The notes beneath the pieces were generated by a model. The model searched no databases and had not been told where the DNA came from. It saw only the letters and a list, made by a program, of their open reading frames with translations. A DNA stretch of 64,000 nt from an uncultured bacterium. Lineage in GTDB: Bacteria; Omnitrophota; Gorgyraeia; Zapsychrales; Aceulaceae. Location: the NCBI GenBank assembly GCA_937930175.1, contig CALGLP010000023.1:27205-91204 (forward strand), written 5' to 3'. Both the position numbers and the translations under genes were made by a program. Position 1 is the first letter of the stretch. Every line of letters begins with the position of its first letter. Shown here one piece after another: positions 1 through 63,906 of this stretch.

Positions 1-1
1 A

Positions 2-3000
2 ACACGAATATCAAAAGAGCCAAGCTTTGCTCAGACGACCATCGCGATCGAGGAGCAATGCAGCAAAGGTCTTCTGACTTCAAGACAAAAAAATGCTGCC
101 TTGGCTTATTTTGAAAAACAAGCGGAAATCAAAAGGCTTTTACGCGCCATTAAAGCCAGCGACGGCAATCACCTGGCCGATCGGATGGCGCTGGCCGCGT
201 TGTATGAAGAGATGTGGATGTTTCCGCAAGCCGTGGAGCAGCTGGAAAAAGTTTGTGCGATCAATAAGAATTCCTGGACCGCGCTAACGCGCTTGGCGAA
301 TCTTTATGTTGAGCGCTATCCTTATCTACAAGGTGATAAAACAAAGTTTCCTAATAAAGCTTTTGCTTGTGCTGTCAAAGCTGTCAAGGTTTTCCCAGGC
401 TTGCTTCAGGGAGATTCATTAAATTGGGAATTGAGGAATTGTGTTAAAAAGGCAAAGGAAACCGGTTGTGCTTTTGATGAGATGCCTCAAAGGTTTGAGC
501 TGACGTGGATCCCTGAGGAGCAAACAGGAGCCTCGGCAATTGAAAATATCTCCTCCGCTCTTGAGTCCGCGCGTGCTTCCTCGCCGGAAAATGTTTCCCG
601 CGCCAGCGCGCCGGATGGACTTAAAATCGCTCAATTATTAGGACTAAAAAGTGAAGAATCCATAAATTATTTAACTAATGAAGAATTACAAGCCATTCAG
701 GAAATTGTCCATCTGGTTCTTTGTTGCGAGGAATACTGCTGTGTCTGCGAAAGAAGAGATGTTTTTGACTTTTTAAAGCGACTAATCGTTCTTGAGGAAA
801 ATAAAAGTAATCCGCCCATTCTTTATATAAGTGGTTGGTGCCAAGACCGCCTAAGTGCTTTCAAGCTCTTGCGAACAATTGTCGTTGGGCATGAACATTC
901 TATATTTGCTATATATCATATTTTGTCTACACTCTATTTTGTCATTTGCGATATGATCAAAAAATGTAATGACGGTAAATCTTTGGACTGCGCGGGGGAA
1001 AAGGCAATAGAGAAAGTCTTATCGGAAGAATATTTAGGAAAGAAAGACTTGTGGTTTAACTGTCAGGGAAGGGGCACTTTTTTAAGCGAATCATATGATA
1101 TAGGATTATTTGTCTTAAGAAATCCAAATTTATTAAAACGCATCCTTGAAGGTTTATTAGACGGACACGGAATTATAAGTAGGGCTTCTCATATTATAGC
1201 GACAGGCGTTCTATCTTTGTTGGATGAAGACATATATCCAATAACATCCGCAGAAAGCCTGCCGGCAAGGGCTCCTGCTGTGCAGGAAAGCGATTTAAAG
1301 CTCCTGCCTGTTTTTTATAAATTATTTCAAGCTGGATTGCCAGAGAGTGAGTTAAAAATAGCTGGTAGAAATATACAGCATTTATCTTGCGCCAAGGGTT
1401 TTTGTATTAAATTGATCAAAAGAGGTGAAGAATTAACAAAAGTTAATGGGGAGCCTTTCTTATATCAAAAGGCGCGTCAAAAAAGTACTATATCTTATAC
1501 AGGCATCATTCCTGAGCCATGTCAACCGATAGGCGCAAAACCAAGGATCTTTTTATTCAGGATCTCCCGTGAATATCTAGAAGGTTTGGTTAATTTTGAT
1601 TTTACCGAGTGGAATAACCCGTTGTTGATTATTAGGGATGACTCAGGAGATGAATTTTATTGTGGCTGGGCTTATCAGGCGGATATCCGATATTTCGAAT
1701 ATTGTGATGATGTAAGTGCCAGCGAAAGTCTGTTTCTATTTAAAAATTGCGCGGCTCTTATTAAAGAATTTGGCATACTTCATACGGAGTTAATTCCGAT
1801 ATTTCATTCCGGGTGTAATTATAATTTAGATTGGTTCCCGGCAGGGGTTATTTGTGATACGTCTTTCGATTTCCCAAATTTAAGATCATCGATTGGAACT
1901 ATAGCGGATTGGTCTTTGGACCATCTTGGGAGAATGTCGGCATATTGCGTCCGTCAGCAGCTTTTCTGCCTGACGATATTTATTGCTCAGCGCCTGATCT
2001 TCAATGGTTCCTCCGTGGAAAACTTAAGCAGGATATTAAAAGAAAGTTTTAACGCCTATTGCCAGGAATTGCTGGGATATGTGCCAGAATCGCTTGGCAG
2101 AATAAGCTATTATTATTACGCCGATGGCTTATTTCAGGCATCTCAAGGTGGAACTAGGGAAGATACTTGGCCTGGCAATCCAAATAGCGCCTTGCCTGTT
2201 GGCGCTCATCGCTTGCTTGATTTGATCGGATTTGTGTCTATGGAGGTTTTACAGGGGTTGATAAACAATGTAACTTCGCCAGCGAGTGCAGGGTGGGATC
2301 AGGAGGGAAGCAGTCCAGAATCCGATCCTTCATCAACGCCGGTGGGAGAAAAAATTTCTTCTAAAGGGATCGAGACTAAAGAATTCGAAAATGTCTCTAC
2401 GTTAATAGACTTGATCAGAGGCAGTCTGGACTTATTATCTTTAAATACGTTGTTTTTGTTGTTATTTTCTGAAGACAAGACGGCATGGAGAAAATTGATA
2501 AAGCAACGCGGTAAAGATGGCGAACTGCTAAAAGGCAAAAAATTAAAGAATGCCATTAAACGCGTTAGTCAAATGTTTGTCTCTGCGCAGAAGAAAAGCA
2601 TCATCTTGGAGGGCTATATACAAGGCAGACACAGAGGCAGAGATCTTCTTCTTATAAAACCCGAAATAGGCAGTATTCTGTTGGCGCTGAGGGATCAAAT
2701 CGCCCAGCAGCAAGGAACCACCGTTGCCGATGCTGGAAAAACATACGGCATTATAGACAGAGCCGGGAGAAAGACGCAAGCAAGAATCGGCGATCCTGTA
2801 TTTCATGTTACAGGCTCACAAAAGATAACAATAAGTATAATTCTCGACATAGACCCTATCGGCGGGTGCCTTAAACTAAACAAAGAAAATCTAAGCTGGG
2901 ATTGGTTTAATGGTGGGTGCGTATTTACGTCTCGAGAGGATGCAGAAAGGTGCATAAGCAGTTCTGTTTTTAAGGATAAATCGCATTGCATCATTTGGTC

Positions 3001-6000
3001 AGCTATGTTTTTACTGTTGAACTCGTGGCTAAACTCGCTCTTTATCTACGACCCGTTGATGACTTCATCAATTCTTCCCGCTATTTTAACCCTTGGGCTG
3101 ATCGGCCCGACAGCGGTAAGCTTGTCGGGTTTATTCCAAGCCAGCACTGTCAATAACGCGGGATTACTGGATGCGGGTGTTTGGCAATGGCTTGCGGGCT
3201 TCTGGCAGGAGCGCGGGGCTTTATCTCTATCCATGTCAGGATCTTTTTCATCGGGAAATTCCTTGGATCAGACTGTTTCGTCATCTTTGATCGACCGCAT
3301 CTCAGGGCCGAACGCAGTCATTCGGGATTTCGAGATCAACGATGACTGCATGACTCTGACGGCGCAACACAAAGGGGTTACTGTTAAGGTCAGGATCGCG
3401 CATAAGTTATGCACGGTTATTTCGCTGGGTGCACGCAACCATAGTAAGCTCAACTCTATTCCGGCAGAAGCTAATCTTTTGAGGATTAAGGATATGGTGT
3501 TCGACAAAGAAGGTTTCGAATCCCAACATCCCTCCTTTTATGTAAACAAGGCCCGGGAAACCCTACAGGACGATCGATGGTGGCATATCGACGGGATTCG
3601 CGAGATTCCCATTGCCTCGATCTTTCGCATGCACAATACCTCCATTTTTAAATATTTCAGTATTTTGAGCCGGATCAACGATGAGGAATCGACTTGGAAT
3701 AAATTCATCCAAGAATTTCCGATCGATATCTTGGATATAGGATATGGGCAATATTTTATCCTTAAAGGAATGCATCGTTTTGACCTGGCTTACCTCTTGG
3801 GTCTTCAGGACGGGGAAATCCCCTGCAAAGTCTACCGGGTTAAAGAAAGTCGTATGAGCGAGAATGTCATGATCGGAAGCCTTTGGCAGTATATCGAAAT
3901 GCTTCAAGATGAGCTGGGCCCGAAGGATTTTAGAGAAAGATTCTTTAAGCATTCGATTGGAAAATTGGTAAGTGCGGTTGATTGCCTGAAGCCCGTTGCA
4001 TCTTACGAATATGAAAAGGCAAGCAATACAGTGACCATGACTTTTCCTTTCGTGGAGCTTTCGAATAAAAAAACGTCCTTAAAGAATCAGAACTCTAAAA
4101 TGCAGTATCTTTTTTGTCTTATTGCGGTTTTGACCGACATTGATCCTGAAGGGTTGCTTCCGTATGTTCTTGAAGAAGGGGCTAGGTCAGGGATTTTCCC
4201 CGCGTTAATAAGCTCTTCGCTCAAAACAGCCGCCCGCGCCAGCGCGCCGGGGAGTTATAAGACTCCGACGTTTATCCGCTCCTTGATCGGCTTACGGCAG
4301 AAATATTTCCCAGACAAACCCGGGCAGGCTGCGAAGCAGGGTCTTCATGAAGGCGTGAATGCGATCTGCGATTTCATTTTTGTGTTTTTTCAGGAGATCA
4401 AATTCAAGGGTTCTGTTGATATCTTCAAACCGCTGTTCTTTCAATACGACTTAAGTGACTTGTTTCAAACCCTTGCGGCTACGCCGGCAGATATCCTGAC
4501 GCCGCGCAACAAAATCGTTCAGAAGATCATTCGAGCCTTTTTAGCGATCGAGACAAAAGATTTCGAAAAGTCCTGGGCAGCGCTCTTGGAGACCGCGCGG
4601 GATTGCGTTAATCAAAAAAACAAAGATTTGGGCACATTTTGTTTCTCGACGATGCTGGATCTTTTTTATTCCTTGGTCCAGACTAAGGATATAAATGACT
4701 TTAGCATCAAGATATCGTGGGTTGTGGAAGGGCTGAAGAACACCAAGGATGTTGTGGCGCTTGCCTTGGGCGTTAACCTTATTGATGTTTTGCGCGCCAC
4801 CCTGGCGAACGAAATGGCCCAGGGGAAGAAAAGACCCTTGGCGGACCATCAGATCTTTGCGATCATACTCGAGAAAGACATCGCCCTGCGCGCAGACGAG
4901 ACGATTAAAAAGACGCTGGAGCAGGATCCAGAGTTTTACAATCAGGTCGCTTATAGCGATGAAAAGCTCGCGGCTTTGTATGATCAACTCGGGCAAGTGT
5001 ACCTGTTCATCGATCGGTATGCGCCGGAGATGGTCCGAAAAGCAGAAAAGGTTACCAACCAAGCGCTTTGGCTTGTGCCGGATCATGAGCCCTATTTGAT
5101 CCATTTGATCGATATTCATCTTCGTCAGGCAGGATTTTCTATCTTGGAAGGGGATTTTGTAAGCGCGTACGCCCGCTGCAGCGAAGCTGTTCGCCTGGAT
5201 GGTTTTGTTATCAAGAATAACGGCCAAAGCCAAGTGCCATTGATCCATTTTTATTCCGTGATCCTGGAAGTTCTCGATCCGGCGGGCGAAGGGGAGCGGG
5301 CGGCCAACACTTTTTGGCAGGAGGTTTTACCGGTGTTCCGGGATGAAGACCTGGTAACGGTGTTTAATCGCGTCGTTCCCCAAGCGCAGGAGGACACATC
5401 GCGTCAGAGGGCGGTGGCATTTTTTGCGGATCATTTTAAACTTTTGGGTCATGATTTAGACGATTATGCCAAGGCAGCTAAGTTTTTAGGTCAAATTGCG
5501 GATAGTCAGACCTGTGCTGCTTTGCAGGAGCACGCCAAAGATTTGTTTGAGCAAATCATCAGTAAAGGGGATTATACGGTGGCGGTTGATCAGGCGGATA
5601 TTCTCGCCAGGTTAGGGGCGCCCCGCAAGCAAGTGGAGGCCTTGAATGCTAAAGCAAAAACTTTATCGCGCCTTTGGACGGATATTCTGAAGGCTGAGAG
5701 CAGCGGTCAGCATGAAGGCGCATTGAAGAAAGCCGAACAGTTGCTTAACCAAAACTCCGGAGATGTTCGCGCTCAGAAAAAATACCAATGGCTGAAAGCT
5801 GAGATTGCAGCAGCCCAGAATCGGCAGAAGATGATCACAGATATTGAAAGCTTTCTGCGTAACGCGAACAATCAGGCGCAAAAACCGGATGAAGACAGCA
5901 AGCAAAAGGCGCGCAAGAATCTATCGAGGGTCGGGGAAATGATCGCCGGGCTTGATCCTGAAAAGGCAAAGACATATGTTGGGCGCATAGCCGCCATCGA

Positions 6001-9000
6001 AGCCCTTTTGATAGCGCAAGAAAGCGAAAGCGACGACCACGCTGAGATCAAAAAGTCTAAAAATGAAGAGCCTGCAAAAAACAAGGCGCCGCCAGCCCAA
6101 ACGACAGAGCCTGCTCCTACCGCAAAAGACCTTCCTCCGTCCAAATCCACTGTTGAAACAAAAAGTATCCGTATATATTTGGCCAGCGATATCTGGACCA
6201 CTTTGCAACAAGGACAACGCTTAGAATTATACAATCGTTTTCTTGGTTCGATCAAGTCATTAGCTAATCGCATCCTTGGCCAGCAACATCATTATAAGAT
6301 TAAAGATATTACCCGTGGATATCCTGTGAATCGTATCCATGTCGGCAAAATCCATCATTTTGCGTACACTGTTTCTATCTCGCAAGAGGATGGGGCGCAA
6401 ATATGGCTATTTTTTGATTACGAGAAAAGCCAAGGGAACAAAGGATATAAAAGGCTAGCTGATAGGCAGGCGCTTGATTATCTTTTTACAAATTTTGATA
6501 AGATTTTAAGAGACGCGGTTCTTGTTTATGAAACATCCTCCAGCGCTTTGGGTTTTGGCGACGCGCGGGTTGCATCGAGGTGCGCTTCGTCTACACCTCA
6601 GAAAAAGGTCTATCCTTTGCTATTAAGCACCGAAGAGCAAGCCTTTTCTACAAAGACTTTTGGAGAGAGCTATTTATCCGAAGCTATTGCGATTGACACA
6701 ACGGCTTTATCAGCCTCTCGCGAACAAGGCGCTGATAGACTGAACAAGATTGCTAACGCAATCTTGACATATCTTACGCAGCGCGGGCCACCAGAATTTG
6801 CCACCGATGTTAAGGCCGCATTGTTGTCCACAAAGATATTTTTTACCAATGATCTCCTCCTGCTTCAAGCAAAAGACTCCTTACCTTATATCGCTATTAC
6901 CGAAATAATCACGAAGCAAATATTTTTCCATACACAGTATCTTCAGTTTCCATTGTATAAGCAAATAGAGATTTTCTATTATGCCCTTGTCGGTTGTATG
7001 ATGAAGACAGCCTTGACTCGAGAAGAGGCAGAGGCAGACACGATTATTTTTATTTTGGAATATTTGTTTAAGACACGTCCTGAGCTGTGGATTGATCTTA
7101 ATCTCCTTGCGCAAAAGCTACAGGAAGGGTTGAAGGTTAACATAATCAAGCATGCTGGCAAGAAATTGATCTTTTATTCGCCAACAAAAAGGTGGATTGT
7201 TAAGATTAACTTAGAGCCAGATTTTGCTTTTGAGAAAGAAAAAGCATTTTTTGAAAAACACAATCCGCTTGAAGGCGCGCACATGGCTTATGCGAACAAT
7301 GAAGCCAAGTTTCTCGTTTTCAGTAATGTGTCTTATGACGGAAGGCTTAAGGATCTTTTTTCCTATTTGCACAGCGGGCAGATCAGCCTTCAAGAGGCAA
7401 AAGACGCTATCTGTGGTTATGCCTTGGTTCTTGCGAAGATACACGATAGCCGGATGGACATTTTGGATGAGGGTATTTATCTTCCGCAAGATTTTGATTC
7501 TCAGCTTGAAAGGGCATTAAATCGGTGTAAGTATTTGGCCGACCAAGGCTATCTCGATCTTCCTTCACGAGAGCAAATTATTGCAGCACATCACGATGTT
7601 CGCGACGATCAACTCGTCATGCATCATGGCGACCCAGGACTTACGAATTTTTTTGTTGACCCCTGGACGAGGGAAATAGGTGCGGTCATTGATGGAGAAG
7701 CCAGCTCACGTGGCGCGCGTAGCAAGGAATTGGCGAAAGTGATTGTCACGCTTATTGACGCTCAGAAAAATAGCCCCTTTCTTATTCAGAATTTTTATTC
7801 TTTGTTTATAGCTTTTCTTGATTCCTACTTTGATGCAAGTAAGGTTAATCCTTCGATTATTATGGCAGCGATACCGTATTATTTGGCGACAGAGCTTCTC
7901 TGGTATGCAGAAGAAACCCAGCGTATCCTTGGGAATAGGACGTGGGTCGCTTGGCGTCTTGAACTATGCCGATGGGCTTTGTCGATTGAGAAATTCACGC
8001 CAACGCGATTGATCGCTTTTTTGAGCGAAGGTCTTTCCTATGTGCGTGTAAACTCAGTTACGACTAAGATTGTCTCTCCTTTATTTTCTGAAGTAATGGC
8101 TTCGGGTTTTGAGATGAACCTGGAGCCTCATGAAACTGCTAAAATTTTTGTGTATGTCGATGTTGAAAACTCCTCGGAAAAAGTGATTTCCCTGATGCGA
8201 ATACCTGCTGAGCTTTGGAGTGATATTGATCAACAGGATGTTTGGAGAGGTGTTGGTCCGCTTGAATTGATTCATTATGGAGATGGAAAAGCTGTGTTTA
8301 TGGCTAAGGCTTTGGCAGAGATTTCCAATAGGCCGGAGTCTTTTTATCAGTTAACTTCGCGCATTGGTCAGGCGTGGGCGGATTTGCCTCGAGGGAACCT
8401 TAAGATAAAAGTTAGTTTAAGCAAGCTAGAGAGGAAGTCATGGGAAGAGTCACTTCAGGTTTTTTGGGGAGCGGTTATGCTGGATTGGGATGGAACAATC
8501 AAGGGGTATGGAAACAAGGCTCCTTCAATTTCTATCTTTGACCACATTGCTAGGCTTAATGCGGCAAAGGTTCCCGTTGCCATCAATACGGGGCGTAGGA
8601 AGGCAGAAGATACTAGAGAAATCTATGACTTTTTTAAAGAGATAGGGGAGCGGCTCGGTGATCATTTTCATCCAGAGCTATGTTATTTTTATTTTAGCAC
8701 AGCTTCCCTCGCCTATGTTTATAACAACTCAGAGGCATTGTATCAGGCACACATCCAGGATGATTATTTGGCGCATGCTATGGACGTTCTAAGGCAGAAA
8801 CATTTTGATCCCTTTGTTAAGGATGTGGATATTGGCCAAGAGGCGATTAGTTTTACCTTTAAAGGTGCCTGCGATCGAGGGTTGTTTGCGGATCGGCTCA
8901 ACAGAAAGCTTTCCCAAAAGCCGGGTCTGGGCGCAACCTATACGGATGATTATTTTCAGGTCGGCATTTGTGATAAGCATATAGGACTACAGGACTTCTC

Positions 9001-42000: not shown

Positions 42001-45000
42001 CAGAAAATCTCTTTTTGATCGGATCTTCGAGTACATCATTCTTCCTAAAAAGATAAGCCTTTTTCAATTTTATCAGAGAGCGATCCCTTTGCCGTATCAG
42101 AAGAAGTGGTCTTGGGATTTATACCCGTATTTAATTTTTGATCTTTCGGATATGCCTTCTGCGCTTGTCTTTTCTTTAAGTCCTGCCGGCACCAAGACTG
42201 AGGCGTTAACAACGTCTTCGGTGATACACCCAAAGAGCGATTCTGTCTATGCTCTGGAGGTCAGGGATTTCGACGGCGCGCCTGAGGCCCGGAACAAAGC
42301 TGCTAGGCTGCGAAACGCTCTTCTGAAGGCTGATATCCCTTTTGTTCAGAAGAAAAGCTTTGAAGATCTGCCCTGGAAAGCAATCACCAAGTGTATTGGA
42401 GAGCATGAAGGCCCTGTGATGACCTGGATCATTTTCGGGGGACTGTTTCGGGCTTGTTTACGAAAAACGATCAAAAAGATTATAGATCTTTGCTCTAAGC
42501 TATCGGGTCAGACGACGAGGATCGTTTTGCCTTTGTTTGCTATGAATCACCTTTATCGTTATGAATTGACGAGCGAGTCAAGCGAATTTCGTGCTTATAT
42601 GCAAGTTAGTGAAATTCCTCGCTTGATCGAGGCGCATTCCAAGGAAGGCTTGATCACAACAGGGAAAGAACCTTGGCTTAATGCGGATGGATATTATTTT
42701 ATGTTTGACTATGACGCAACCAAACAGCAGGTCGTGATCCGTTGTAATGGACAGATTTTACGTGTTTTAGGAGACGAGGCTTCAACCAAGCATACTGTGA
42801 TTCTTGATTTTGTGATGACATTGGAGGGTTTTAATAAAGTTATGGAACAAACCCAGATTACGGCTGTGAATGTCGATGGTAAAGAGGTAGGCAAGTTAGC
42901 GCAAGAGCAAGAATTCGGATCCCCATTAGTACTTCCAACCATTTTAGTCTTAGGCCTCATCGTCTCTGCGCTGGCAAGTTTGCTGGGCTTCTCGGAGCCC
43001 GGCGCGGTTGCTCACGCGGGATTGGGGGATGCGGGGGTTTTGCAGGGGTTGGCGGGTTTTTGGTCAGAGAATGTGGCGGTAATGTTGTCAGCAATATTTA
43101 CCAATGGGCCGGGGGATTTGGTAGCGATGAGCTTAGGGCTTTCTTCGGTTTCGCCTAGCCTTTTATTATTTAAGGAAGACAATGCTATTGGACCAGGCCA
43201 TTTAGTTAATGAGCACGCGCCTTTGGAATTAACAGACATGATTCAGCCAGGGTTCTTGACTCCTGGACTGGTCGTTGTTCATAGCGATGATATTCTCCAG
43301 GAAGTACTCTATATATACAGCGAATATAATTTTGTGGGGGCTGCAGGAACGCTTGCGGTGTATCTAAAGCGTTCACGCTGGATCAATCTTTATCCGCGGA
43401 TATTCGCCTATCTTGATAGAGTTCTTCCTGAATCTTATGAAAGGATTGTTTTAGTTAGATCCTTTGAAGACCCAGAAAGGGTAAAGCACGAGATCCTTCA
43501 TGATCTTGTTGAGTTATCTTCACAAGTAGACTCCCGTCCTTTTGAAAGTCTTATTGAAGCTTTCAGTAAGATTATGGAAGAGGATAAAAATTTCAATGAA
43601 AAATTTCATGAATTCCTGTGTCCTAATGGAGCATGTGACACAGGGATGAACGTGGAGCATTTTATTTGTTATTTCTTTTCTGGCCAAAGGTCTCACGATT
43701 GCTCCGAGGAATACCTTTCCTTTACTCGTACTTATCATTATGAAGAACTTTATGATTATTTTTTGCATCAAATGCCGCGCGAAATTATTGATTTATTTGA
43801 TCAGCTTGGTTTAGTCTGGCCGGATGGTAGTGATGTTGATCAAAATGCTGGGGACACGCAAGAAACATTTAGCATATCTAGTCCCCGGATTGCTCATCGT
43901 ACGGGTGTGTGGGAGCTTGAAGAGGCGGGCAAGCCCAATGATCCCAGGGAAGATGTTTCTTCGCCGATCTCACGGGAAGACTTCATCGATAACTATCTGA
44001 CATCGCTCGGCAAGCATTGGGCAGACTTAGCGCCGAAGATGAAGCCCCTTCTACTTAAAAGGTTGATAAGTCTAGAAGCCGGGGCTGATTATTATGTGCA
44101 AGACAAAGAGGCTTTTGCCGCGCTTGCCGACCTCGGCATAGCGAGTGCCCATATGTTCATGCTGTTGTTGCGCACTAGGGCGCGTCCTGACGTCGAAAAA
44201 GAGGTCCTTCTTGAGAAAAACATCATCGAGGGTAACTATGAGCCTGTATTTCAATATTTCGTCAATTTATATAAATATCCCAATGAAAGCGACACCTTTT
44301 CTAGGTATCAATCTGCTGTTGTCAGATATGCGATCCTCCTTGAGGGCGATACGGTCGTCAAAGCCCCGCGTGATATTGTTGCCTACATTAAGGACATTGT
44401 CATTAACGAGTTTATAGGCTCAAGGGAAGAAATCTATTGTGGATCAGCTTACGGCCAGTGTGACCTTTATCCTCGGGCTGCTGTTAATGAGGCGCAGCAA
44501 TATTTTGAACGACATTTTCTTGAGTATTATGGAGTGGCTTTTCCGGTATTGCTCGCCGATGTCGTTGTTTTCACGAAAGATGTAAATAAATGTTTTTCGT
44601 CTCAATCAAAGATCGGCGTGGCTTATTCCTCGCACGACTCCTCTAAAATATATCAAAAGGTTGTTCCTTCTCTCATAAGGAAGATCTTCCACGAAGCCCT
44701 GCATTTGGCTTTGCCGTACAGCTTTAATGATTTTTACGCCTTGAGAATTTTTGATGAGGGTCATATAAGATATGAAACGGACGAATTTACCTGGTTCGTC
44801 GATCCGCAGAGTTGCCATGTTGACGATGGCATAGCCGACGATATATATTTTCCTCATCGCCGCTTATTCGTATCTCTGCAGGAAATCGTCGGCAGAAACA
44901 ACATCATTAAGATGAGAATGGAAGGAAAGATCGGCCCGTTGGTCGCCGCCTTGGGCGCTTACGGGAATGAATTGATGATGCTGTTTGAGTATGTTCAGGC

Positions 45001-48000
45001 TACGAAGAAAGAAAGGCTGGGCCTTGAAGTTGGCAGCGGCTACACGGAGACAGCGCCCATCGACGATTCCCAAGAGCTCCTTTTGAATAGGAATTCTCCG
45101 GAGATGCTTCTTCAATTTATCGAAAAGGAGGAAGCGGTCCTAAGTGCTCAACGGCCTGATTGGCAGGAGCGTAATAAAAAAGGAACAATATTCGATCCGT
45201 GCTTTAAAGGTCGGCTAGCGGCTTCCTCGCCAATTCTTCCTTCTGTTCTTATGCTTGGCCTGATCGTCTCTGCGCTGGCAAGTTTGCTGGGATTGTCGGA
45301 AGTCAGAACCACTATTCACGCCGGAATTCTTGATATAGACCCTATGGACTTTGGCTATATTTTGCGGAGTTTAGTCAGAATCGGGTTGTTCACCGCAGGC
45401 GTAAGTTTGTTATTTGAGAATATTATCTTAAACTTCTCTGGAAATGTTTATGAGAAATTCTATAAAAAGACGCGCATGGGCATTCTAAACGCCCGGGATA
45501 TTGTGCATGCCGGTGAACTGGGGGCGCGAGGATTTTTTATCGGGTATCAACGATGGTTTAGACGCATCGGCGCAAAAGATCTCACCAAGAATTTTGTGAT
45601 GTTGTTAGCGACAGGGAAATCCTGGGAGATCGCGTATCAGAAGATCGCGGATAGCTTAGATTCTTGGGAGACTCCGGAAACCCAGCAATGGCTTAAGAAG
45701 CAGGGCATTGACCCCAGGATCAAGCCAGACCCCAGCCGCATGGTTGTTTTTCATTTGGATACGGTGATCCCGCAACAAAGAGAGGACTATTTTTCCTTCT
45801 CAAGGACCCTTGGTATTGTGTGTGATACGTTTCATATCCCACAAGCGAAAGCGAATCGTTTCTTTTGGTATGGGGATTGGACGTTGGATGATCAAGGTAA
45901 TCTCGTACAGATGTCCCCCGAAGAATTTTTTTCTCTTAAAGACGATATTCACTCTCGTGGGTTTAAGATCAAGGATTTTTTATCAGGGCAGATGCCTTGC
46001 GAGGACGCACAATATCGCTTTTTGTCCGCCATGGAACAGCAACGACAGAAGACCTCTGATCAATATCGTGCATTGGGCGGCGCTGATTTTGTGGCATACA
46101 GTTTTGGGCCGTCGTATCAGGGTAAGGGGCATGTGGCCTTTGTGGAATCCATGGATGAGGTACGGGATCAAGCTTTCATGGATTTGGGCGGGTATCATTT
46201 TGCCGCCAGTCAAGCCTCTCAAAATGGAGGTTTCAGCCGCACCGTTGGCAAGCACGGTTTTGTGACTTTTTCGATCGCGGATATAACGTTTAATCCTGAG
46301 GCGTATTTAGTGGGCATTGTGACGGATCATCATAAATCTTCAACGGTGCGTATGGCTGTTGAAGGAGATATCGCAAAGGATTTTCCGCGCTATCCGGCAA
46401 CCGGTTTGCAGAGATCTCAGGGGGTCTTGATCTTGACTGATGAATCCGCGCGTGATCTGCGCGACCGAAGGCATCCCTGGGACTTTCGTGTACTAAAAAA
46501 ACCTGAATGGACTGAAGAAATGCGCCGGACATTTTTGATCCGCTTGTCTCAAGAAGCTGGCAAGCCTTTGACACAAATCATGGATAAAGATTTTATTGAT
46601 CCCGAAAAAGATCTTCCTGGACCCGTCCTAAGGATACGGCGGAAGAATTTAAAAATATTCAAAAGTTTTGGATCCTTAAAGTCGCAGGGTCAGGCGTATA
46701 TTCAGTTTGTCATGGATCATATGACAACCACGGCGCCGCAGGCCTTAGCGGAGAAACTTTGGGGGAGAGAGCGCATTCATTCTCTTGAGTTCATCGCGGC
46801 TTCGCTCGATTTTTTAAGAAATCAATATGAACAATGCCTATGTTATGGTCATGATGGATCCAATATCCAAGAGCTGATCCAGTCAGAAGAGAAATCATTA
46901 GCGTCAAAACAAATTACTATTTTATTGAAAGATCCTCATCCTGATGATAGTTTTCTCGCCCTGCTCATTGGTTTTCTTAGAAATCTTATTGCCAAGGGTT
47001 ATGTTAGAGCCTATGCCATTTGCGCGACCACAGGGGCCGAGGCGGTGAGCGATGTATTGGTTGTGCAATTTCTAGAAACCATGCGCTCCTGGGATCAAGA
47101 AACCATCAACCAAGCCTTTGATCTTGATCGTGGAGAAACAACGAAGCAATTGTTACAAGACGCCATGGCCCAAGAAAAACCCAGTGATGTTTTAAGTTAT
47201 GATGTGCAAAGTAAGATGACCGCAACGGGATGGCATTTACGAACAAAACTTATTTTTAATTATTTGTTCGTTAAGCGATTCGAATATCAACATGCCCCGC
47301 CAAAACAAGAACTTCAAGAATTTTTAGACAAGTTGATCGCCGAGATCGAGGCCAAGCCAGATTGGGGAGCTCGGGATAGTGAAGAGATTGTCTATATGAA
47401 AAGCATTGTTCGCGTGATCGAGAATAAAACTGCTATGATGGCCCTAGGGCTTCCTTATGAAAACATTTTTGATCCGATGAATTTTTCTTGGTATCAGTCT
47501 GGGGTCAAGGATGGGACAGCGCGCGATCAAGACGTAGAAAGGCTGATCAATGTTATTAAGGGCATAGGACGCCTGGATATGATCATTGGTAATGGGGAGG
47601 GTTTTCGGTCTTACGATACGCATGCGACCGTTGAAGCCATGGTGATTGCGGCGTTGTTAAAGTTGTTGGAGCAAAAATGGATCGACCCGAAAACGTTTCG
47701 GTATTTCACTTATGAAGGCGTGTGGAAGAGAAAGTTGCTAGAAGAAGCAAATCTCACTGTTCTTTATTCTCAAGAAGAGATCGAGGAATTTGATCGGATG
47801 TTCTTAAATCTTTATCCATCTCAAGTGCCTGCAGAAATGCTGGATGCTTCTCAGGAAAGAGTGATGCTGTTTTCACAAGCCGTTGTTCAACATGGGAAAA
47901 AAACAATCAAAGAATTGAGAAGAGTTTTAGGGTCTCACAAGGTTGACGAGGTTCTGCCTCGCGCTAAAATGGCGCTTCATTTTAGAGTTTTAAGGTTGTC

Positions 48001-51000
48001 AGACCCAAACGATCTAAACACAATGCCCCAGAAGATCGAAGAACTTGAAAGGGTTCGTGGGCCCTTGGAAAGGGTCAGTCCGTTAAAGCTTTATGGACCG
48101 TTACCAGGTTCTATTTTAGAAAAAGAAATTGGTAAGAAATCTATAAGCTCACCTACACAAATTTCTTATTGTGCTGTCCAAGGTGAATGCGAGGGCCGAA
48201 GTATGTGGTTTAAGATTTTGCATGCCCCTTGGACCATGGTTCACGTTATCGGCAATCTTGCGCAGGCCTTTTTGACAGGGCGACGAGCAGATATAGAAAA
48301 AATAGATCTCTTGGCTGGTATTACCTATAAAAATCACGCACCTCCTTGTTATGGGGGTATGATGGCGAATATCCTTGCATGTGTTGCAGTTCTTTATTTA
48401 AGTTCTTTTTGGTTGCTTAGGTTTTATGCCATTGTGCATTTTGTTTTTGCCGCAGCTGAAATTTATTTTCATTATTTTTCTTTTGATAAGATTTTTTCTG
48501 ATCTTGATTTCGAGATTCATGAAGACCTTGAGCAAGACCCCCAAGCAAAAGAAAATTTAGAAGCATTTGTTCGAACATTGAAGGATCAATACTTCTTTGT
48601 TGTTTATCCATGGGATGGAGACTTCGATAGCGCGAGACGATTTATGATGGAAAACGGTTTTAATGCGCAAGTCATCGAGGATGCGCGTTGGTCGCTTAAA
48701 GAATTGTGGGATAACATTGATCAAATGAACAACCCGCACCATGATCTGCTTGCTCGCTATAGCGTTGATAGCGTATTGGCATTTCGCTTGATCAATATAG
48801 CAGGTGAGTTTTATATTGAATTTTTAGTCGTCGATAATGGCCCTGGTTTTGACGATATTGAACAGGCTGTTATGACAACTTATACATCAAAGATTTTGAC
48901 TGGTCAGCGCGGCTTGGGGCTTCCTGGTTGCGCTCGAAGAGCATTGTTTCATCAAGGCGGGTTATCGATTGCGTCCAGAGGAGAGGAGTTTATTATTGAT
49001 CGGTTAATTGATCTGAGTTCTTTCGTCCACCAAAGACCAAGGCTAACGATCGTTCAAGTCTTTATGCGTGCTCTGCGCGAGCATTTATCATGCGCCATAG
49101 GGCCATTATTATTGATCTTATTTTCTAATCAGATCTTTTTTAATGCTTGGGGTGATGCGCTGGTCCGTAATACCCTGACCGGAGCTGTGACGGGATTTTT
49201 GGGTCAGTTGCTGGCTGGATATGTTGCCAAGAAAGAATGGAATATTTTCAATGCTTTTGGCATGGGTGTTTTAGGTGCGACATTTGGTTTTCAGATTCAT
49301 TATGGTTTTAAGATCATCAATCAAATCGTTCCTTATAGCGCAGATCTTTTAGCGCAGGGGTTAAGGACTTTTTTGATCAGCTGTATGGGATTAGCGACGT
49401 TGTTGCAGACAAGTGTTTGGCGTCATGTGGCTAGGATGATTCAAGAGAGATTTTCTAAGAATATGATGAAGGACCCTCATTATTCTGCTCAAGCCCAAGT
49501 GGCTAAAAATATTGATTCGATCGTGATCCTTTTTGCTTTAGGCGTAGGTACGAATTATTTGTCTCAACTATGGGATAGCCCGCTGTTTTATATGACATCG
49601 GGGATGGCGGTTTTTATTTTGCATCGGTATTTTGATGAGCGCATGAGTCCCGTGTTGAATATGATGTCGCGGGCGTATCGGATAATAGATTTTCTTTATC
49701 AGAAATGGTGCGTTGGTAATCTTTTGGCTGTGCAAGTATCTTTACGAGTGCGTGAAAGATTCCTCTTTTTTTGTAAGCTTTTGTTGTTTTCGAAGAAAGC
49801 GAAACAAGGCCAATATGCCGGTGTTGTTGTGCAGGGAGTTTATGAGAGGGTTTTTGAAGGCACGGAGCGGCCTTTTGAGACTGTTGAATCCTTAAAGGTT
49901 TTCATTCAAGTTTATTATGATGATTTTGTCGGAAACACGCTGAATTATCTATCTGCCTTGGCTGAGCTTAAGACGTTATTAGGAGAGATAGGAAATAAAG
50001 AGGCGCGGCTTATTTGGAAGATCGTTAAGGATGTTGATGAGAGTATTATCAATGATTTTGAAGAGATAAGAGAAAGTAAAACACCTAGGGAGTTTGTTGT
50101 AAAGGCTCTTTCTTATCAGACGTCGCATATTCGCTTAGCAAGATCTTTAGTCAGGAAGATGATCAGAGCGGACCTTGTTTGTCCTGAATTTTTAGGATGC
50201 GCATATCAGTATTTGCACGAATCGCAAAGATTTTATAAGCAGCTTGAGCAAGGCATTAAGGATGTTATTGGCAAAAAGTTTCGAACACCCCGGACAAACA
50301 CCTTGCTTTTGACCGGCGAGCTTCAACGTGAAGAGGAAAGCCGTAGCTTATCGCCATTTCAGTCTTCCACCGCGCAGGGCTCCTCCGTGCTCGGTCATCT
50401 TTCTGAAGAATTTTCTCTTAAATTTCCTTTCTTACGGCATTTTTTAGTGCCTCCGGTTCAAGTACAACCCGTGCTTGAAAGAAATAGTTCAGAACGTCAA
50501 TTCAACCTTAAGGGGCAGATGTCTGCTGCAGCATGGCATCGGGAACGTGGCGAAGAATATGTGGCTTTGGAGCTTGAAGATCTGATCAACGTGATCCGTA
50601 AGATCCCGGGTTGCCCTAAGGAAGGCAGCGATGATGATTTTGTACTTGCTCATCGTAAGCCCGAAGGCAGGATCTGGTGGGATATTGAGGGCGGAGAGCC
50701 AAAAGTTCGTAGGATCTTGGAAGAGATATGCCAGTTGCATCCTTTTGTCATCGACGCATTGATTCAGCAGGTGTACGTTAATCTGACGCAGTCGAATTCT
50801 TATCATGCAGTTGTTAATCAGGGGTGCGTTTTCTTGTTTAAAAAATATCTCAAAGAGAGCACTCAAGAAGATCTGTTGTTTGGCTTGCCCTTGACGGTTG
50901 TATGGCAAAATAAAATGTTTCAGCTGGATCATCAATCGCAGGCCGCAGTTATCGAGCGGGGAATGCAGACGGCTGTTGATAGGGTGATGGCTGCAGTCTG

Positions 51001-54151: not shown

Positions 54152-54167
54152 TAGCGCAGGAGAGGCC

Positions 54168-63716: not shown

Positions 63717-63822
63717 TCTTTCTCACCCGGACTGACATTCGTCAATCCTCCTTCGAAACGGGCCGCCCTCGCTTGGACCAGTGGCGCTCGGGTCGGCTTT
63801 GACTCCAAGTTCTGGGAAAAAG

Positions 63823-63906
63823 TGCCGAAGGTGGGAGTCGAACCCACATGCCCGTGAAGACGCCGGTTTTTGAGACCGGTGCGTATACCAGTTCCGCCAC
63901 TTCGGC
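63823..63906 (-). tRNA. tRNA-Leu (anticodon CAA), type II with long variable arm, 84 nt, CCA not encoded
   Basis: Reverse complement folds by hand: acceptor GCCGAAG/CTTCGGC, D-stem GCG/CGC, anticodon stem CCGGT/ACCGG with loop CTCAAAA (anticodon CAA), T-arm GTGGG-TTCGACT-CCCAC, discriminator A. Confidence 0.8.

What the first reader, a model, noticed from the sequence alone, without database searches (positions are those of the whole stretch)
1..52867. Giant (>52.8 kb) single ORF, truncated at the window edge, encoding a >17,600-aa mosaic protein
One frame is stop-free from nt 2 to 52867. The TTG at 101 picked by the ORF track is not a credible start: the 33 upstream codons continue the same TPR-like helical sequence with no stop, so the gene extends beyond the window. 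Real catalytic signatures recur along the whole frame, and antisense ORFs are short (the longest is 235 aa), so this is genuine coding sequence rather than a stop-poor artefact. Genes of this size are very rare in prokaryotes; giant ORFs have been described mainly in uncultivated lineages such as Omnitrophota. This one appears to combine enzymatic, signalling, sigma-factor and transporter domains in one polypeptide.
Basis: partly seen in the sequence, partly recalled or inferred. Interest (0 to 1): 0.9.

Follow-up and report, generated by a model that had tools for sequence, protein, structure and literature searches.

The report
Giant concatenated-protein gene in Omnitrophota
This is a real gene of more than 17,600 codons from an uncultivated Omnitrophota bacterium that strings dozens of ordinary whole proteins into one reading frame, joined by short serine-serine junctions that may mark where the giant product is cut apart.

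Summary
Frame 2 (+) has no stop from nt 2 to 52,864 (17,621 codons, TAA at 52,865). Its codon usage matches the neighbouring housekeeping genes along its whole length, and independent assemblies reproduce the 3' end. Neighbour genes place it in Omnitrophota. The syntenic orthologue in a related species is called at 31,133 aa, so truncation at the window edge is credible. This kind of gene is already described ("multi-enzyme" giant ORFs of Omnitrophota, preprints of 2023 and 2026), so the object is a new member of a known kind.

What I found that those papers do not report is the construction rule. Recognisable modules are complete stand-alone proteins: an ECF sigma factor, a CheY-like receiver, a rifampin-phosphotransferase/PEP-synthase-like enzyme and a CDF transporter. 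They begin, and for the receiver and the PEP-synthase-like enzyme also end, within 0-7 residues of a short motif, [A/I/V]-S-S-[S/P/T/A/V]-[I/V/L]. The motif is about 6-fold enriched and recurs roughly every 300-400 aa. It precedes six internal signal-anchor-like segments. It recurs at module boundaries in related giant ORFs whose modules are otherwise gained, lost or reshuffled.

Best reading (inferred, about 0.45): a membrane-associated polyprotein precursor processed at these junctions. No protease and no proteomic evidence were found. An uncleaved megaprotein is the main rival.

The parts
2..52867 (+). Giant ORF: 17,621 sense codons plus TAA. It is open at the 5' window edge, so it is partial.
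10577..10600 (+). Junction 'VDRMSS|TGIK' (SS at aa 3,529-30), 7 aa before position 1 of a full-length ECF sigma model
10592..11332 (+). ECF-type sigma-70 module (aa 3,531-3,777). Regions 2 and 4 are present, and the match covers positions 4-189 of the 193-position model NF009166.
11339..12274 (+). Unannotated module of about 310 aa ('PIGLEIELNL...'). It is paralogous to aa 12,371-12,612 (30% identity) and is also found in relative P0013 (50% identity).
13652..14656 (+). ARMT1-like damage-control phosphatase module
15362..16273 (+). HD-domain module preceded by the tandem junction 'GMSSPMVSS'. It is shared with P0013 and with the 31,133-aa orthologue, where 'TSSGVSSKNNGSS' precedes it.
21848..23428 (+). 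Copy A of a duplicated module of about 530 aa. It starts at junction 'CMSS|TLQT' and is followed by helical repeats of about 66 aa that contain the 393-nt repeat.
24974..26566 (+). Copy B of the duplicated module (50% identity to A). It starts at junction 'KASS|TLFS'.
28310..29425 (+). Module that begins after junction 'AAASS|AIF', with two hydrophobic helices followed by an enoyl-CoA hydratase (crotonase) domain
29435..30385 (+). PrmA/MTS-like methyltransferase module that begins after 'RISSS|LKN'
30809..33466 (+). Complete rifampin-phosphotransferase/PEP-synthase-like protein (aa 10,270-11,155: ATP-grasp, middle and His-swivel domains). Model NF041857 position 1 falls at aa 10,267 and position 864 at aa 11,155. 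The module is flanked by 'RISSS|AIIK' and 'TIISS|PVLP'.
36278..37009 (+). CDF cation-efflux transporter membrane domain with a His-rich N-terminus. ZitB model position 1 falls at aa 12,096, 4 aa after 'KASSS'.
38660..39010 (+). Complete CheY-like receiver (aa 12,887-13,003). CpdR model positions 1 and 120 map to aa 12,885 and 13,003. The module is flanked by 'CLSS|VILVVDDE' and 'LRKSS|KTSS|P'.
3056..3232 (+). Copy 1 of a repeated signal-anchor-like motif that starts at a junction ('MTSS|ILPAILTLGLIG...AGLLDAGVWQWLAGFW'). The other copies are at nt 30,380-30,565; 33,467-33,637; 40,163-40,366; 42,917-43,123; and 45,224-45,334.
42221..42901 (+). Module (aa 14,074-14,300) that begins after 'LTTSS|VIHP'. 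It is homologous to free-standing proteins of 207-223 aa (P0015, P0016, P0017, P0024).
43148..45223 (+). Two adjacent unannotated modules, each with an HExxH motif (aa 14,496 and 14,897). This is a weak lead for zinc peptidases.
45599..47971 (+). Region resembling glucosamine-6-phosphate deaminase plus LmbE (PRK02122-like)
48152..49696 (+). HATPase_c-like module with a multi-helix membrane segment, 47% identical to the C-terminus of the orthologous giant ORF, which stops here
50387..52864 (+). C-terminal module of about 830 aa with no family match. It is absent from the orthologue L007/L093 but forms the C-terminus of relative P0013 (33% identity over 690 aa).
52919..54151 (+). U32-family gene (TrhP/UbiU-like) 52 nt downstream. 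It lies directly after the giant ORF in the orthologue too, and a U32 gene lies two genes downstream in L087. Context only; probably not part of the system.

Best explanation
Shown: this is a genuine giant gene of an Omnitrophota bacterium. At least 17,621 codons are visible, and the total is probably far more. It is built as an in-frame concatenation of roughly 40 protein-sized modules with a median length of about 300 aa. Where a module can be recognised it is a complete ordinary protein that has lost its start methionine and its stop codon. Neighbouring modules are spliced through a very short junction, [A/I/V]-S-S-[S/P/T/A/V]-[I/V/L], often present twice within 5-15 residues. About 25 hydrophobic helices make the product membrane-associated; these include a CDF transporter and six copies of a signal-anchor-like motif that starts right at a junction. 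Related species carry an orthologous, syntenic giant gene in which the same junction motif recurs, while modules are inserted, lost or rearranged between junctions.

Inferred: the gene works as a bacterial polyprotein. One long translation product would be cut at or next to the Ser-Ser junctions, possibly co-translationally. This would release stoichiometric amounts of cytoplasmic enzymes and regulators (sigma factor, receiver, kinases, hydratase) and of membrane or exported proteins whose new N-termini are the signal-anchor-like segments. The protease is unknown. Candidates are the two HExxH modules inside the ORF or a domain in the unseen N-terminal part.
For: Reality of the gene: no stop in 17,621 codons while the other frames carry 25-92 stops per 3 kb. 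Codon usage matches the neighbouring genes at r=0.91 and is uniform along the gene. The 3' end is identical in four other records, and a 15,963-aa call is on record in ERZ724082. No Rfam element lies inside the ORF.

Taxon and orthology: AccA is 82% identical to an Omnitrophota MAG. The gene order giant ORF-U32-557/558 aa protein, then ComM-DUF212-YkuD-AccA-RlmN, is shared apart from one differing gene, and the orthologous giant call is 31,133 aa.

Whole-protein modules with exact junctions: NF041857 (864 positions) maps to aa 10,267-11,155 with SSS at 10,267-9 and SS at 11,156-7. The CpdR model (120 positions) maps to aa 12,885-13,003 with SS at 12,885-6 and 13,004-5. ZitB position 1 is 4 aa after an SSS, and ECF sigma position 1 is 7 aa after an SS. 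Of 15 model termini, 4 lie within 1 residue of an SS run against a 2.4% background (binomial P=3.6e-4).

Motif statistics: the five-residue pattern occurs 28 times against 4.6±2.2 in shuffles (maximum 13 in 1,000). ASS, SSP and SSS are among the ten most over-represented of all tripeptides. Density is 1.6 per 1,000 aa, against 0.4-0.7 in ordinary ORFs of the same and related genomes. Both TCN and AGY serine codons are used, so the signal is at protein level.

Recurrence in relatives at 35-54% module identity: 'VLSS|PLYILIVDD', 'AGSS|IVVLVVDDE', 'GSVSS|ILS' and 'TSSGVSSKNNGSS' before the HD module in the orthologue; 'KTSS|PV', 'RASSSS|L', 'TASSS|V', 'FSS|AILP' and 'RASS|AF' in P0013. In P0013 the last of these sits exactly at a breakpoint where module order differs from the window.

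Module autonomy: one module equals free-standing 207-223-aa proteins. Internal duplicates begin at the junction. Signal-anchor- or signal-peptide-like segments follow junctions.

Against internal translation starts: start codons and SD-like motifs are not enriched after junctions.

From established knowledge: crotonases assemble as trimers or hexamers, CDF transporters as dimers, and ECF sigma factors must bind core RNA polymerase. These requirements are hard to satisfy together in one uncleaved membrane-tethered chain.
Against: Cleavage is not demonstrated, and no proteomic data were available. No protease domain was detected in the visible 17,621 aa by Pfam, NCBIfam or PDB sequence search. 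The HExxH modules have no family match, and the single-sequence AlphaFold model was unusable at pLDDT 35. The downstream U32 gene looks like a TrhP/UbiU-type hydroxylase. The motif carries little information: about 40 SS dipeptides lie inside modules, some boundaries lack SS (ARMT1 N-terminus; the boundary after the CDF has 'ACS'), and I defined the pattern after looking at the sequence. Several junctions leave only 2-3 residues between the last strand of one domain and the first strand of the next, which is tight for a protease acting on the folded protein. The termini test rests on only 15 termini from 8 modules. Relatives are few (3 genomes), and all come from the same lineage.
Confidence: 0.45

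Rival explanations
1. Same architecture, but never cleaved. The product would be one multi-megadalton, membrane-anchored 'beads-on-a-string' megaprotein, or a surface or inner-membrane lattice. All modules would act in cis, and Ser-Ser would simply be this lineage's preferred minimal splice between fused domains, or a site of phosphorylation or glycosylation.
For: No protease was found. Junctions are very short and flanked by secondary-structure elements. Runs of cytoplasmic-type modules (CDF C-terminus, unannotated module, methyltransferase-like module, receiver) are not interrupted by hydrophobic helices, so one chain could have a consistent topology. The literature treats the TM-only multi-enzyme giants as inner-membrane-anchored cytoplasmic enzymes (10.64898/2026.06.07.730766). 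Most known bacterial megaproteins (NRPS/PKS, adhesins) are not processed (established knowledge).
Against: It does not explain why a specific motif with hydrophobic flanks, rather than any linker, recurs across species at 35-54% module identity. It also does not explain why sites are so often doubled, or why signal-peptide-like segments with a basic n-region follow junctions. A sigma factor, a stand-alone receiver, a dimeric transporter and a trimeric/hexameric crotonase have conflicting assembly needs in a single chain (inference).
Confidence: 0.35
2. The ORF is a disguised operon. One mRNA would be decoded into separate proteins without proteolysis, through internal initiation at module starts or a non-canonical termination or peptide-release event at the Ser-Ser codons.
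For: Modules correspond to whole proteins. Junction serines are biased toward TCN codons: 87% against 65% overall, P=0.004.
Against: After junctions, ATG/GTG/TTG codons are not enriched (14 of 28 against 43% at random positions). SD-like motifs are not enriched either (11% against 17%). Recognisable modules lack a start methionine ('SS|VILVVDDE', 'SSS|AIIKIRD'). Serine codons at junctions vary among all six codons, so there is no conserved nucleotide signal. No structured RNA element was found. Without stop codons every internal initiation would read through to the end. Downstream genes use ordinary stops, so the genetic code is standard.
Confidence: 0.05
3. Assembly artefact or decaying sequence: a chimeric contig, or a pseudogene-like stop-free stretch that is not expressed.
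For: Only short-read metagenome assemblies are available. Most of the 5' 48 kb could not be compared base by base with another assembly. One gene call on record is shorter, at 15,963 aa.
Against: A chimera of unrelated pieces would not keep one frame open for 52.8 kb. Codon usage is uniform and native. Repeats are short and diverged. Catalytic residues are intact. The orthologous syntenic gene in another species is 31,133 aa on a 152-kb contig from a different project. Giant ORFs of this phylum are confirmed on complete long-read genomes in the literature.
Confidence: 0.03

Closest known systems
'Multi-enzyme metabolic cluster' giant proteins of Omnitrophota (class 1 of Nielsen & Lui 2026, bioRxiv 10.64898/2026.06.07.730766)
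   Same: Same phylum. An ORF of more than 10,000 aa in which many different Pfam families tile the chain with none dominating. It shares that paper's 'Module 1/2' families (methyltransferase, HATPase_c, HD, response-regulator receiver; HAD only as a sub-threshold hit) and its TM-only membrane association.
   Different: That work does not mention cleavage, linkers or junctions, and it discards internal signal-peptide calls as chunking artefacts. Here the modules are shown to be complete proteins bounded by a recurring Ser-Ser motif. A sigma factor and a CDF transporter are not named among the families in the passages of that paper that I read.
Archaeovorin and Dockerin-type giant proteins (West-Roberts et al. 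2023, bioRxiv 10.1101/2023.11.21.568195), including the 39,678-aa ORF of Velamenicoccus archaeovorus
   Same: Omnitrophota giant ORF with many transmembrane helices. That paper raises the same open question of whether the product is cleaved, and notes that cleavage points are unknown.
   Different: No SecA-DEAD, C39, S8, dockerin, discoidin or carbohydrate-binding domains occur in the visible 17,621 aa. The content is cytoplasmic-type enzymes and regulators, not adhesion or cell-wall degradation domains. The downstream neighbours are housekeeping genes, not pilus/secretion genes or PilZ.
Viral polyproteins (picornaviruses, flaviviruses, nidoviruses)
   Same: One ORF encodes many complete proteins of unrelated function, joined by short sequence-specific junctions with small residues. 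As in flavivirus polyproteins, some junctions are followed by internal signal or anchor sequences.
   Different: This is a cellular bacterial chromosome gene. No protease was identified and cleavage is unproven. It is 5-10 times longer than any viral polyprotein. This is an analogy of mechanism only, with no homology.
Eukaryotic multi-enzyme fusion proteins (AROM, CAD, fatty-acid synthase) and bacterial NRPS/PKS megasynthases
   Same: Several formerly separate enzymes are fused in one uncleaved chain.
   Different: Those fuse enzymes of a single pathway with channelling or carrier domains. Here no C/A/T or KS/AT/ACP domains were found and the modules are functionally unrelated.
Engineered 'fuse-and-cleave' nif polyproteins (Yang et al. 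2018, PMC6130400)
   Same: The concept of a polyprotein in bacteria that gives stoichiometric amounts of many proteins from one ORF.
   Different: It is a synthetic construct that uses TEV protease sites; I know of no natural precedent in bacteria at this scale.

Membership tests
Omnitrophota giant ORFs (>20 kb; Seymour et al. 2023, PMC10066038) | Uninterrupted ORF longer than 20 kb | tested here: met
   52,863 nt without a stop
Omnitrophota giant ORFs (>20 kb; Seymour et al. 2023, PMC10066038) | Encoded in an Omnitrophota genome | tested here: met
   The ten closest AccA matches (62-82%) are MAGs titled Omnitrophota/Omnitrophica or uncultured Planctomycetales/Planctomycetia. The locus is syntenic with an Omnitrophota MAG, and the source names that MAG's U32 protein 'Candidatus Omnitrophota bacterium'. 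No marker-gene phylogeny was made.
Omnitrophota giant ORFs (>20 kb; Seymour et al. 2023, PMC10066038) | Multiple predicted transmembrane helices | tested here: met
   28 windows of 19 aa have Kyte-Doolittle mean >=1.7, about 25 distinct segments including the CDF domain. No dedicated topology predictor was available.
Class 1 'multi-enzyme metabolic cluster' giants (Nielsen & Lui 2026) | Many distinct Pfam families tile the polypeptide and no single family dominates by copy number | tested here: met
   At least 12 distinct families, none present more than twice; no tandem repeat arrays
Archaeovorin-type giants (West-Roberts et al. 2023) | Divergent SecA-DEAD/preprotein-binding domains and N-terminal C39 or S8 peptidase domains | tested here: not met
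   No such Pfam or NCBIfam hit in aa 1-17,621. The N-terminal part of the gene lies outside the window and could not be tested.
Dockerin-type or tandem-repeat scaffold giants | Dockerin, TSP3, discoidin or other high-copy repeat domains | tested here: not met
   No hits. The only repeats are helical units of about 66 aa in about 5 copies and a few module duplications.
Polyprotein (as defined for viruses) | One ORF that contains several complete, functionally distinct proteins in series | tested here: met
   Full-length model coverage for the sigma factor, the RPH/PEP-synthase-like enzyme and the receiver. The CDF matches only its membrane domain (model positions 5-203 of 313). One module equals free-standing 207-223-aa proteins.
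Polyprotein (as defined for viruses) | Sequence-defined cleavage sites at the junctions between the mature proteins | tested here: inconclusive
   A junction motif exists, is enriched, and recurs at module boundaries in relatives. That it is cleaved is not shown.
Polyprotein (as defined for viruses) | A protease, encoded in cis or in trans, that recognises those sites | tested here: inconclusive
   No recognised peptidase family in the visible part. There are two HExxH modules without family support. The unseen N-terminus was not tested.
Polyprotein (as defined for viruses) | Mature products detectable in the cell | not testable with these tools
   Needs proteomics or N-terminomics of the organism
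NRPS/PKS megasynthases | Repeated condensation/adenylation/thiolation or KS/AT/ACP domains | tested here: not met
   No such hits

The most novel reading that the evidence does not exclude
Omnitrophota giant 'multi-enzyme' genes are true cellular polyproteins with a simple junction code (hydrophobic-Ser-Ser-small-hydrophobic). Whole genes would be captured, lost and shuffled in frame as cassettes between these junctions, and the product would be cut there into dozens of ordinary proteins, including regulators, transporters and secreted proteins. That would be a way of organising and expressing a sizeable part of a bacterial proteome without promoters, ribosome-binding sites or stop codons, so far known only from viruses.
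Probability: 0.35. Interest if true: 0.9.

Novelty: new member of a known kind. Interest (0 to 1): 0.66.

Why it matters
Giant ORFs are now known to be common in Omnitrophota, but what they do is unresolved. The explicit open question in the literature is whether the product works as one chain or is cut, and where. West-Roberts et al. state that missing cleavage-point information blocked their analysis. This window gives a concrete, testable answer candidate: modules are complete proteins delimited by a short Ser-Ser motif that recurs in relatives. The motif allows the giants to be split computationally into modules for structure prediction. It predicts exact neo-termini that can be searched for in existing proteomic data. 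It also offers a simple two-module construct for cleavage assays. If cleavage is confirmed, it would be the first natural large-scale polyprotein strategy in a cellular organism. If it is refuted, the motif still defines the fusion grammar and the cassette-like evolution of these genes.

Tried and rejected
1. Extending the gene upstream failed.
- The N-terminal 500 aa found no relative in genome contigs.
- Two antisense ORFs near the 5' end are not on record as genes, so they could not be used to pull flanking DNA.
- Both metagenome scans found nothing: a module alignment and my own degenerate pattern.
- An alignment of the transmembrane motif was too variable to scan with.

2. All three homologous-protein searches were uninformative.
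- The query spanning the CDF and the receiver returned only generic response regulators.
- The HExxH region and the C-terminal module returned nothing, not even the gene itself. These giants seem to be absent from that index.

3. The exhaustive HMMER search gave only 13 hits among 1.84 billion representatives, so the family is very sparse.

4. The protease hunt was negative.
- No peptidase family was found by Pfam or NCBIfam, nor by PDB phmmer at E<=1 for aa 1-4,700 and 13,501-17,621 and E<=0.001 for aa 4,501-13,700.
- The single-sequence AlphaFold model of the HExxH module was unusable (pLDDT 35), so no fold search was run.
- The adjacent U32 'peptidase' is closest to TrhP/UbiU hydroxylases, so I rejected it as a candidate.

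5. I considered and rejected three other readings.
- Recoded genetic code: downstream genes end at normal stops.
- Nucleotide-level signal at junctions: all six serine codons are used.
- Internal initiation.

6. I suspected that the duplicated 'PIGLEIELNL' module is a carboxylate-amine ligase. Pfam gives no support even at E<=1, so it stays unannotated.

Going through its cluster id worked.
Full report
**1. The observation**

Frame 2 of the + strand has no stop codon from nt 2 to nt 52,864 (17,621 codons). It ends with TAA at 52,865-52,867. The window has 45% G+C, and the other five frames carry 25-92 stops per 3 kb over the same stretch, so chance is excluded. In-frame codon frequencies correlate at r=0.91 with seven ordinary genes downstream. 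The two shifted frames give 0.33 and 0.32, and each 3-kb bin gives 0.70-0.90. The whole length therefore looks like native coding sequence, not a patchwork.

TRF finds no tandem arrays. Protein self-comparison finds only the following:
- a transmembrane motif in six copies;
- one module of about 250 aa present twice at 30% identity;
- one module of about 530 aa present twice at 50% identity;
- a few helical repeats of about 66 aa.

No Rfam family, ribozyme or intron lies inside the ORF.

The last 3.7-14.1 kb of the window's left-to-right sequence recur at 100% identity in NCBI GCA_036722365.1, Logan ERR7850083 and ENA ERZ724082, and at 99.97% in ERZ724084. The ERZ724082 contig is 93,176 bp long. 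By coordinates, the window corresponds to its positions 2,118-66,117, so about 27 kb more lie upstream.

The gene on record there is 15,963 aa, which puts its start at the TTG at window nt 4,976. No SD-like sequence precedes that codon, and 1,658 stop-free in-frame codons lie upstream. I take it to be a start chosen by a gene caller. I could not obtain the upstream DNA.

**2. Where it comes from**

The AccA protein downstream is 82% identical to that of an Omnitrophota MAG, and the next best hits are also Omnitrophota. That MAG's locus is syntenic. Both loci run giant ORF, U32, a 557/558-aa protein, one differing gene (a PD40 protein in the window, an H+-PPase in the MAG), ComM, DUF212, YkuD-LysM, AccA and RlmN.

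On a 152-kb JGI contig of that species the giant gene is called at 31,133 aa. The flanking proteins are 52-84% identical between the two species. The shared modules of the giant are only 35-54% identical.

**3. What the protein contains**

Pfam and NCBIfam recognise the following:
- an ECF sigma factor (aa ~3,540-3,736);
- an ARMT1-like damage-control phosphatase;
- an HD domain;
- PIG-L/LmbE-like domains;
- spectrin-like helical repeats;
- an enoyl-CoA hydratase behind two hydrophobic helices;
- a PrmA-like methyltransferase;
- a complete rifampin-phosphotransferase/PEP-synthase-like enzyme (aa 10,267-11,155);
- a CDF cation transporter;
- a CheY-like receiver (aa 12,885-13,003);
- a NagB/LmbE-like region;
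- an HATPase_c-like module.

Catalytic residues can be read directly in the translation. These are the receiver's DD, D, T and K; the phospho-histidine motif 'GVTQHTAITARE'; two HxxxD metal sites in the CDF; and the HD dyad. About 25 strongly hydrophobic segments are present. Roughly two thirds of the protein has no family match. PDB sequence searches of the first 4,700 aa found only the sigma factor, and those of the last 4,121 aa found nothing.

**4. The construction rule**

This is the part not described in the literature I could read. Where a full-length family model or a solved structure gives both ends of a module, the ends fall on a short Ser-Ser motif.

| Module (model) | Model end | Maps to aa | Nearest Ser run |
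|---|---|---|---|
| RPH/PEP-synthase-like (NF041857, 864 positions) | position 1 | 10,267 | SSS 10,267-10,269 |
| RPH/PEP-synthase-like (NF041857) | position 864 | 11,155 | SS 11,156-11,157 |
| Receiver (CpdR model, 120 positions) | position 1 | 12,885 | SS 12,885-12,886 |
| Receiver (CpdR model) | position 120 | 13,003 | SS 13,004-13,005 |
| CDF (ZitB model) | position 1 | 12,096 | SSS 12,090-12,092 |
| ECF sigma (NF009166) | position 1 | 3,537 | SS 3,529-3,530 |

The local sequences are 'RISSS|AIIK' and 'TIISS|PVLP' for the RPH-like module, and 'CLSS|VILVVDDE' and 'LRKSS|KTSS|P' for the receiver. CheY 4h60 residues 4-119 align to aa 12,887-12,999.

Of 15 model termini from 8 modules, 4 lie within one residue of an SS run, against a background of 2.4% (binomial P=3.6e-4). 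Seven lie within 10 residues, against 11% (P=5.5e-4). The modules have lost their initiator methionine, and the Ser-Ser takes the place of 'stop, spacer, start'.

The pattern [AIVMLCT]-S-S-[SPTAVCI]-[IVLAPF] occurs 28 times, against 4.6±2.2 in composition-preserving shuffles (maximum 13 in 1,000). In an unbiased count, ASS, SSP and SSS are among the ten most over-represented of all tripeptides. I defined the pattern after inspection, so the shuffle test overstates its significance; the termini test and the replication in relatives are the independent evidence.

With a looser score there are 45 junction clusters. Many are doubled, for example 'SSPMVSS', 'SSAVASS' and 'SSSIAASSS'. Some of the 45 are clearly false positives that lie inside domains. 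The clusters cut the chain into pieces with a median of 308 aa, the size of ordinary bacterial proteins.

Motif density is 1.6 per 1,000 aa in the giant. It is 0.4 in the downstream genes and 0.7 in 130 ordinary ORFs from related Omnitrophota loci. All six serine codons are used, so the constraint acts on the protein. TCN codons are over-represented at junctions (87% against 65% overall, P=0.004); I cannot explain this bias.

**5. Independent support for module autonomy**

- aa 14,074-14,300, which begins after 'LTTSS|VIHP', is homologous to free-standing proteins of 207-223 aa from other organisms.
- Both copies of the duplicated 530-aa module start at the motif: 'CMSS|TLQT' and 'KASS|TLFS'.
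- Six copies of a motif start at a junction: 'SS|P-ILPxxLxLGLIxxxxASLxG...AGLxDAGxxQWLAGFW'. Each looks like a signal anchor.
- In a related genome a second large ORF contains 'ASSSS|FSKKPTKGLRKYLTAAAFAVFLSVFMPFSNVFAG'. That is a textbook signal-peptide-like segment directly after a junction.

**6. Relatives**

The exhaustive HMMER search found only 13 hits among 1.84 billion representatives.

P0013 comes from GCA_028693815.1. Its frame is open to the contig edge, so it is truncated. It shares five blocks with the window in a different arrangement and carries the same motif. 'RASS|AF' sits exactly at a breakpoint where module order differs from the window.

The orthologue's last 3,306 aa share the HD, receiver, transmembrane, 14,064-type and HATPase/transmembrane modules with the window, in the same order. 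Those 3,306 aa correspond to 11,460 aa of the window. Different modules lie between the shared ones: two LOG-like domains, another receiver, an HMGL-like domain and a sugar transferase.

Junction motifs recur at the corresponding places:
- 'VLSS|PLYILIVDD', 4 aa before Pfam position 1 of the receiver;
- 'AGSS|IVVLVVDDE', 2 aa before Pfam position 1 of the receiver;
- 'GSVSS|ILS' after the receiver;
- 'TSSGVSSKNNGSS' before the HD module.

The orthologue stops right after the HATPase/transmembrane module. The window continues for about 1,050 aa with a module that is also the C-terminus of P0013. These genes therefore evolve by gain, loss and rearrangement of whole modules between junctions.

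**7. How it most likely works**

Shown: a real, native, membrane-associated giant ORF built from whole-protein cassettes joined by a recurring Ser-Ser junction.

Inferred: the junction is a processing site and the gene is a polyprotein. The reasons are these.
- A specific short motif with hydrophobic flanks recurs across species, where any linker would serve for a mere fusion.
- Sites are often doubled, as if to release short spacers.
- Signal-like segments sit just after junctions.
- The modules include proteins whose normal function needs freedom or incompatible oligomeric states. A sigma factor binds core RNA polymerase, a single-domain receiver diffuses, CDF transporters are dimers and crotonases are trimers or hexamers (established knowledge of those families).

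Against this reading, no protease was found and nothing shows cleavage. The only internal leads are two adjacent unannotated modules with HExxH motifs (aa 14,496 and 14,897; about 0.5 expected by chance in the whole protein, and a third hit lies in the His-rich CDF N-terminus). They have no family match, and the AlphaFold model was useless. The U32 gene next door resembles TrhP/UbiU hydroxylases. Some junctions leave only two or three residues between folded domains, which would favour co-translational cutting or no cutting at all.

Internal initiation is not supported. Neither start codons nor SD-like motifs are enriched after junctions.

I put the polyprotein reading at about 0.45, an uncleaved megaprotein at about 0.35, and the remaining readings together below 0.1. 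The rest is left for explanations I have not thought of.

**8. Comparison with what is known**

- Seymour et al. 2023 (PMC10066038) reported ORFs longer than 20 kb in many Omnitrophota.
- West-Roberts et al. 2023 described giants of up to 85,804 aa with transmembrane regions, SecA-DEAD, C39/S8 and dockerin domains. They asked whether the products are cleaved and noted that cleavage points are unknown.
- Nielsen & Lui 2026 catalogued 916 proteins of 10,000 aa or more and defined a 'multi-enzyme metabolic cluster' class. It contains methyltransferase, HATPase, HD, HAD and receiver domains and is mostly membrane-anchored.

The window's gene fits that last class. It lacks the Archaeovorin and Dockerin hallmarks in its visible part. 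Neither preprint mentions a junction motif. The 2026 text contains no occurrence of 'cleav', 'linker', 'junction' or 'polyprotein', and it discards internal signal-peptide calls as artefacts.

**9. Verdict**

As an object it is a new member of a recently described kind, not a new kind. Its added value is the Ser-Ser junction rule and the cassette-like turnover seen in relatives. These turn the open question 'one chain or many products, and where is it cut?' into a directly testable prediction.

Noticed in passing
window 4976 (TTG), and the ORF upstream of it (nt 2-4975): The gene on record for the ENA ERZ724082 contig, whose retrievable 3' part (14.1 kb) is identical to the window, is 15,963 aa. 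That places its start at the TTG at nt 4,976. The frame nevertheless stays open for 1,658 more codons, and no SD-like sequence precedes the TTG. The first 3 kb have lower GC3 (0.39) and the lowest codon-usage correlation (0.70). This is probably a gene-caller choice, but I could not check it.
   Followed up: partly
L093 1-9921 (JGI 3300025708 Ga0209201_1000074, 151,939 bp): The syntenic orthologous giant gene in a related Omnitrophota species is called at 31,133 aa. Only its last 3,306 aa could be read. They share five modules with the window in the same order, but span 3.3 kaa where the window spans 11.5 kaa.
   Followed up: partly
window 43148-45223 (aa 14,383-15,074): Two adjacent unannotated modules each carry an HExxH motif ('VKHEILHDL' and 'IFHEALHLA...FDEGH'). 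About 0.5 such motifs are expected by chance in the whole protein. They may be zincin-like peptidases, but there is no family hit and no usable structure model.
   Followed up: partly
window 52919-54151; L007 1787-3019; L087 13870-15111: A U32-family gene (closest to TrhP/UbiU hydroxylases, below curated cut-offs) follows the giant ORF within 52-80 nt in the window and in the orthologue. A U32 gene also lies two genes downstream of the related giant ORF in GCA_028693815.1. The first two cases may simply reflect shared synteny.
   Followed up: partly
junction serine codons throughout window 2-52864: Serines in the junction motif use TCN codons 87% of the time against 65% for all serines in the ORF (chi-square P=0.004). 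TCG and TCA are one substitution away from the stop codons TAG and TAA/TGA. This might be a trace of stop-codon loss during fusion, but TCT and TCC are also frequent.
   Followed up: partly
L087 15447-20181 (GCA_028693815.1, JAQUUP010000014.1): A second large ORF (more than 1,578 aa; the call on record is 1,956 aa) starts with a normal signal peptide. It contains an internal 'ASSSS' followed by a second complete signal-peptide-like segment (basic n-region, hydrophobic core, 'VFA|G'), and later 'ESASSS|LLSR' before a different module.
   Followed up: no
window 49697-52864 (aa ~16,566-17,621): The orthologue's ORF stops right after the HATPase/transmembrane module ('...RYFDERPTPVMDLLGRARRFFSRRFS*'). 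The window's ORF continues for about 1,050 aa. The added module is also the C-terminal module of P0013 in a third genome (33% identity).
   Followed up: yes
window 37010-37018 (aa ~12,337-12,339, 'KACSLI'): The boundary between the CDF transporter and the next module has no Ser-Ser. It has 'ACS|LI' at the position where the paralogous module has 'RASS|II', so Cys-Ser may be a tolerated variant of the junction.
   Followed up: no
whole giant ORF, database behaviour: the search for homologous proteins never returned the gene itself or its known fragments, for three different segments. The exhaustive search of 1.84 billion representatives gave only 13 hits. These giants are close to invisible in standard protein indices.
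   Followed up: partly
window 63822-63906 (-): tRNA-Leu (anticodon CAA), the only RNA gene in the window.
   Followed up: yes
window 54027-55844 (+): The gene after U32 (558 aa from the ATG at 54,168; the longest ORF starts at a TTG at 54,027 and overlaps U32) has no Pfam family and only a weak resemblance to a putative glycosyltransferase family. It is conserved next to the giant locus in the orthologue (52% identity).
   Followed up: partly
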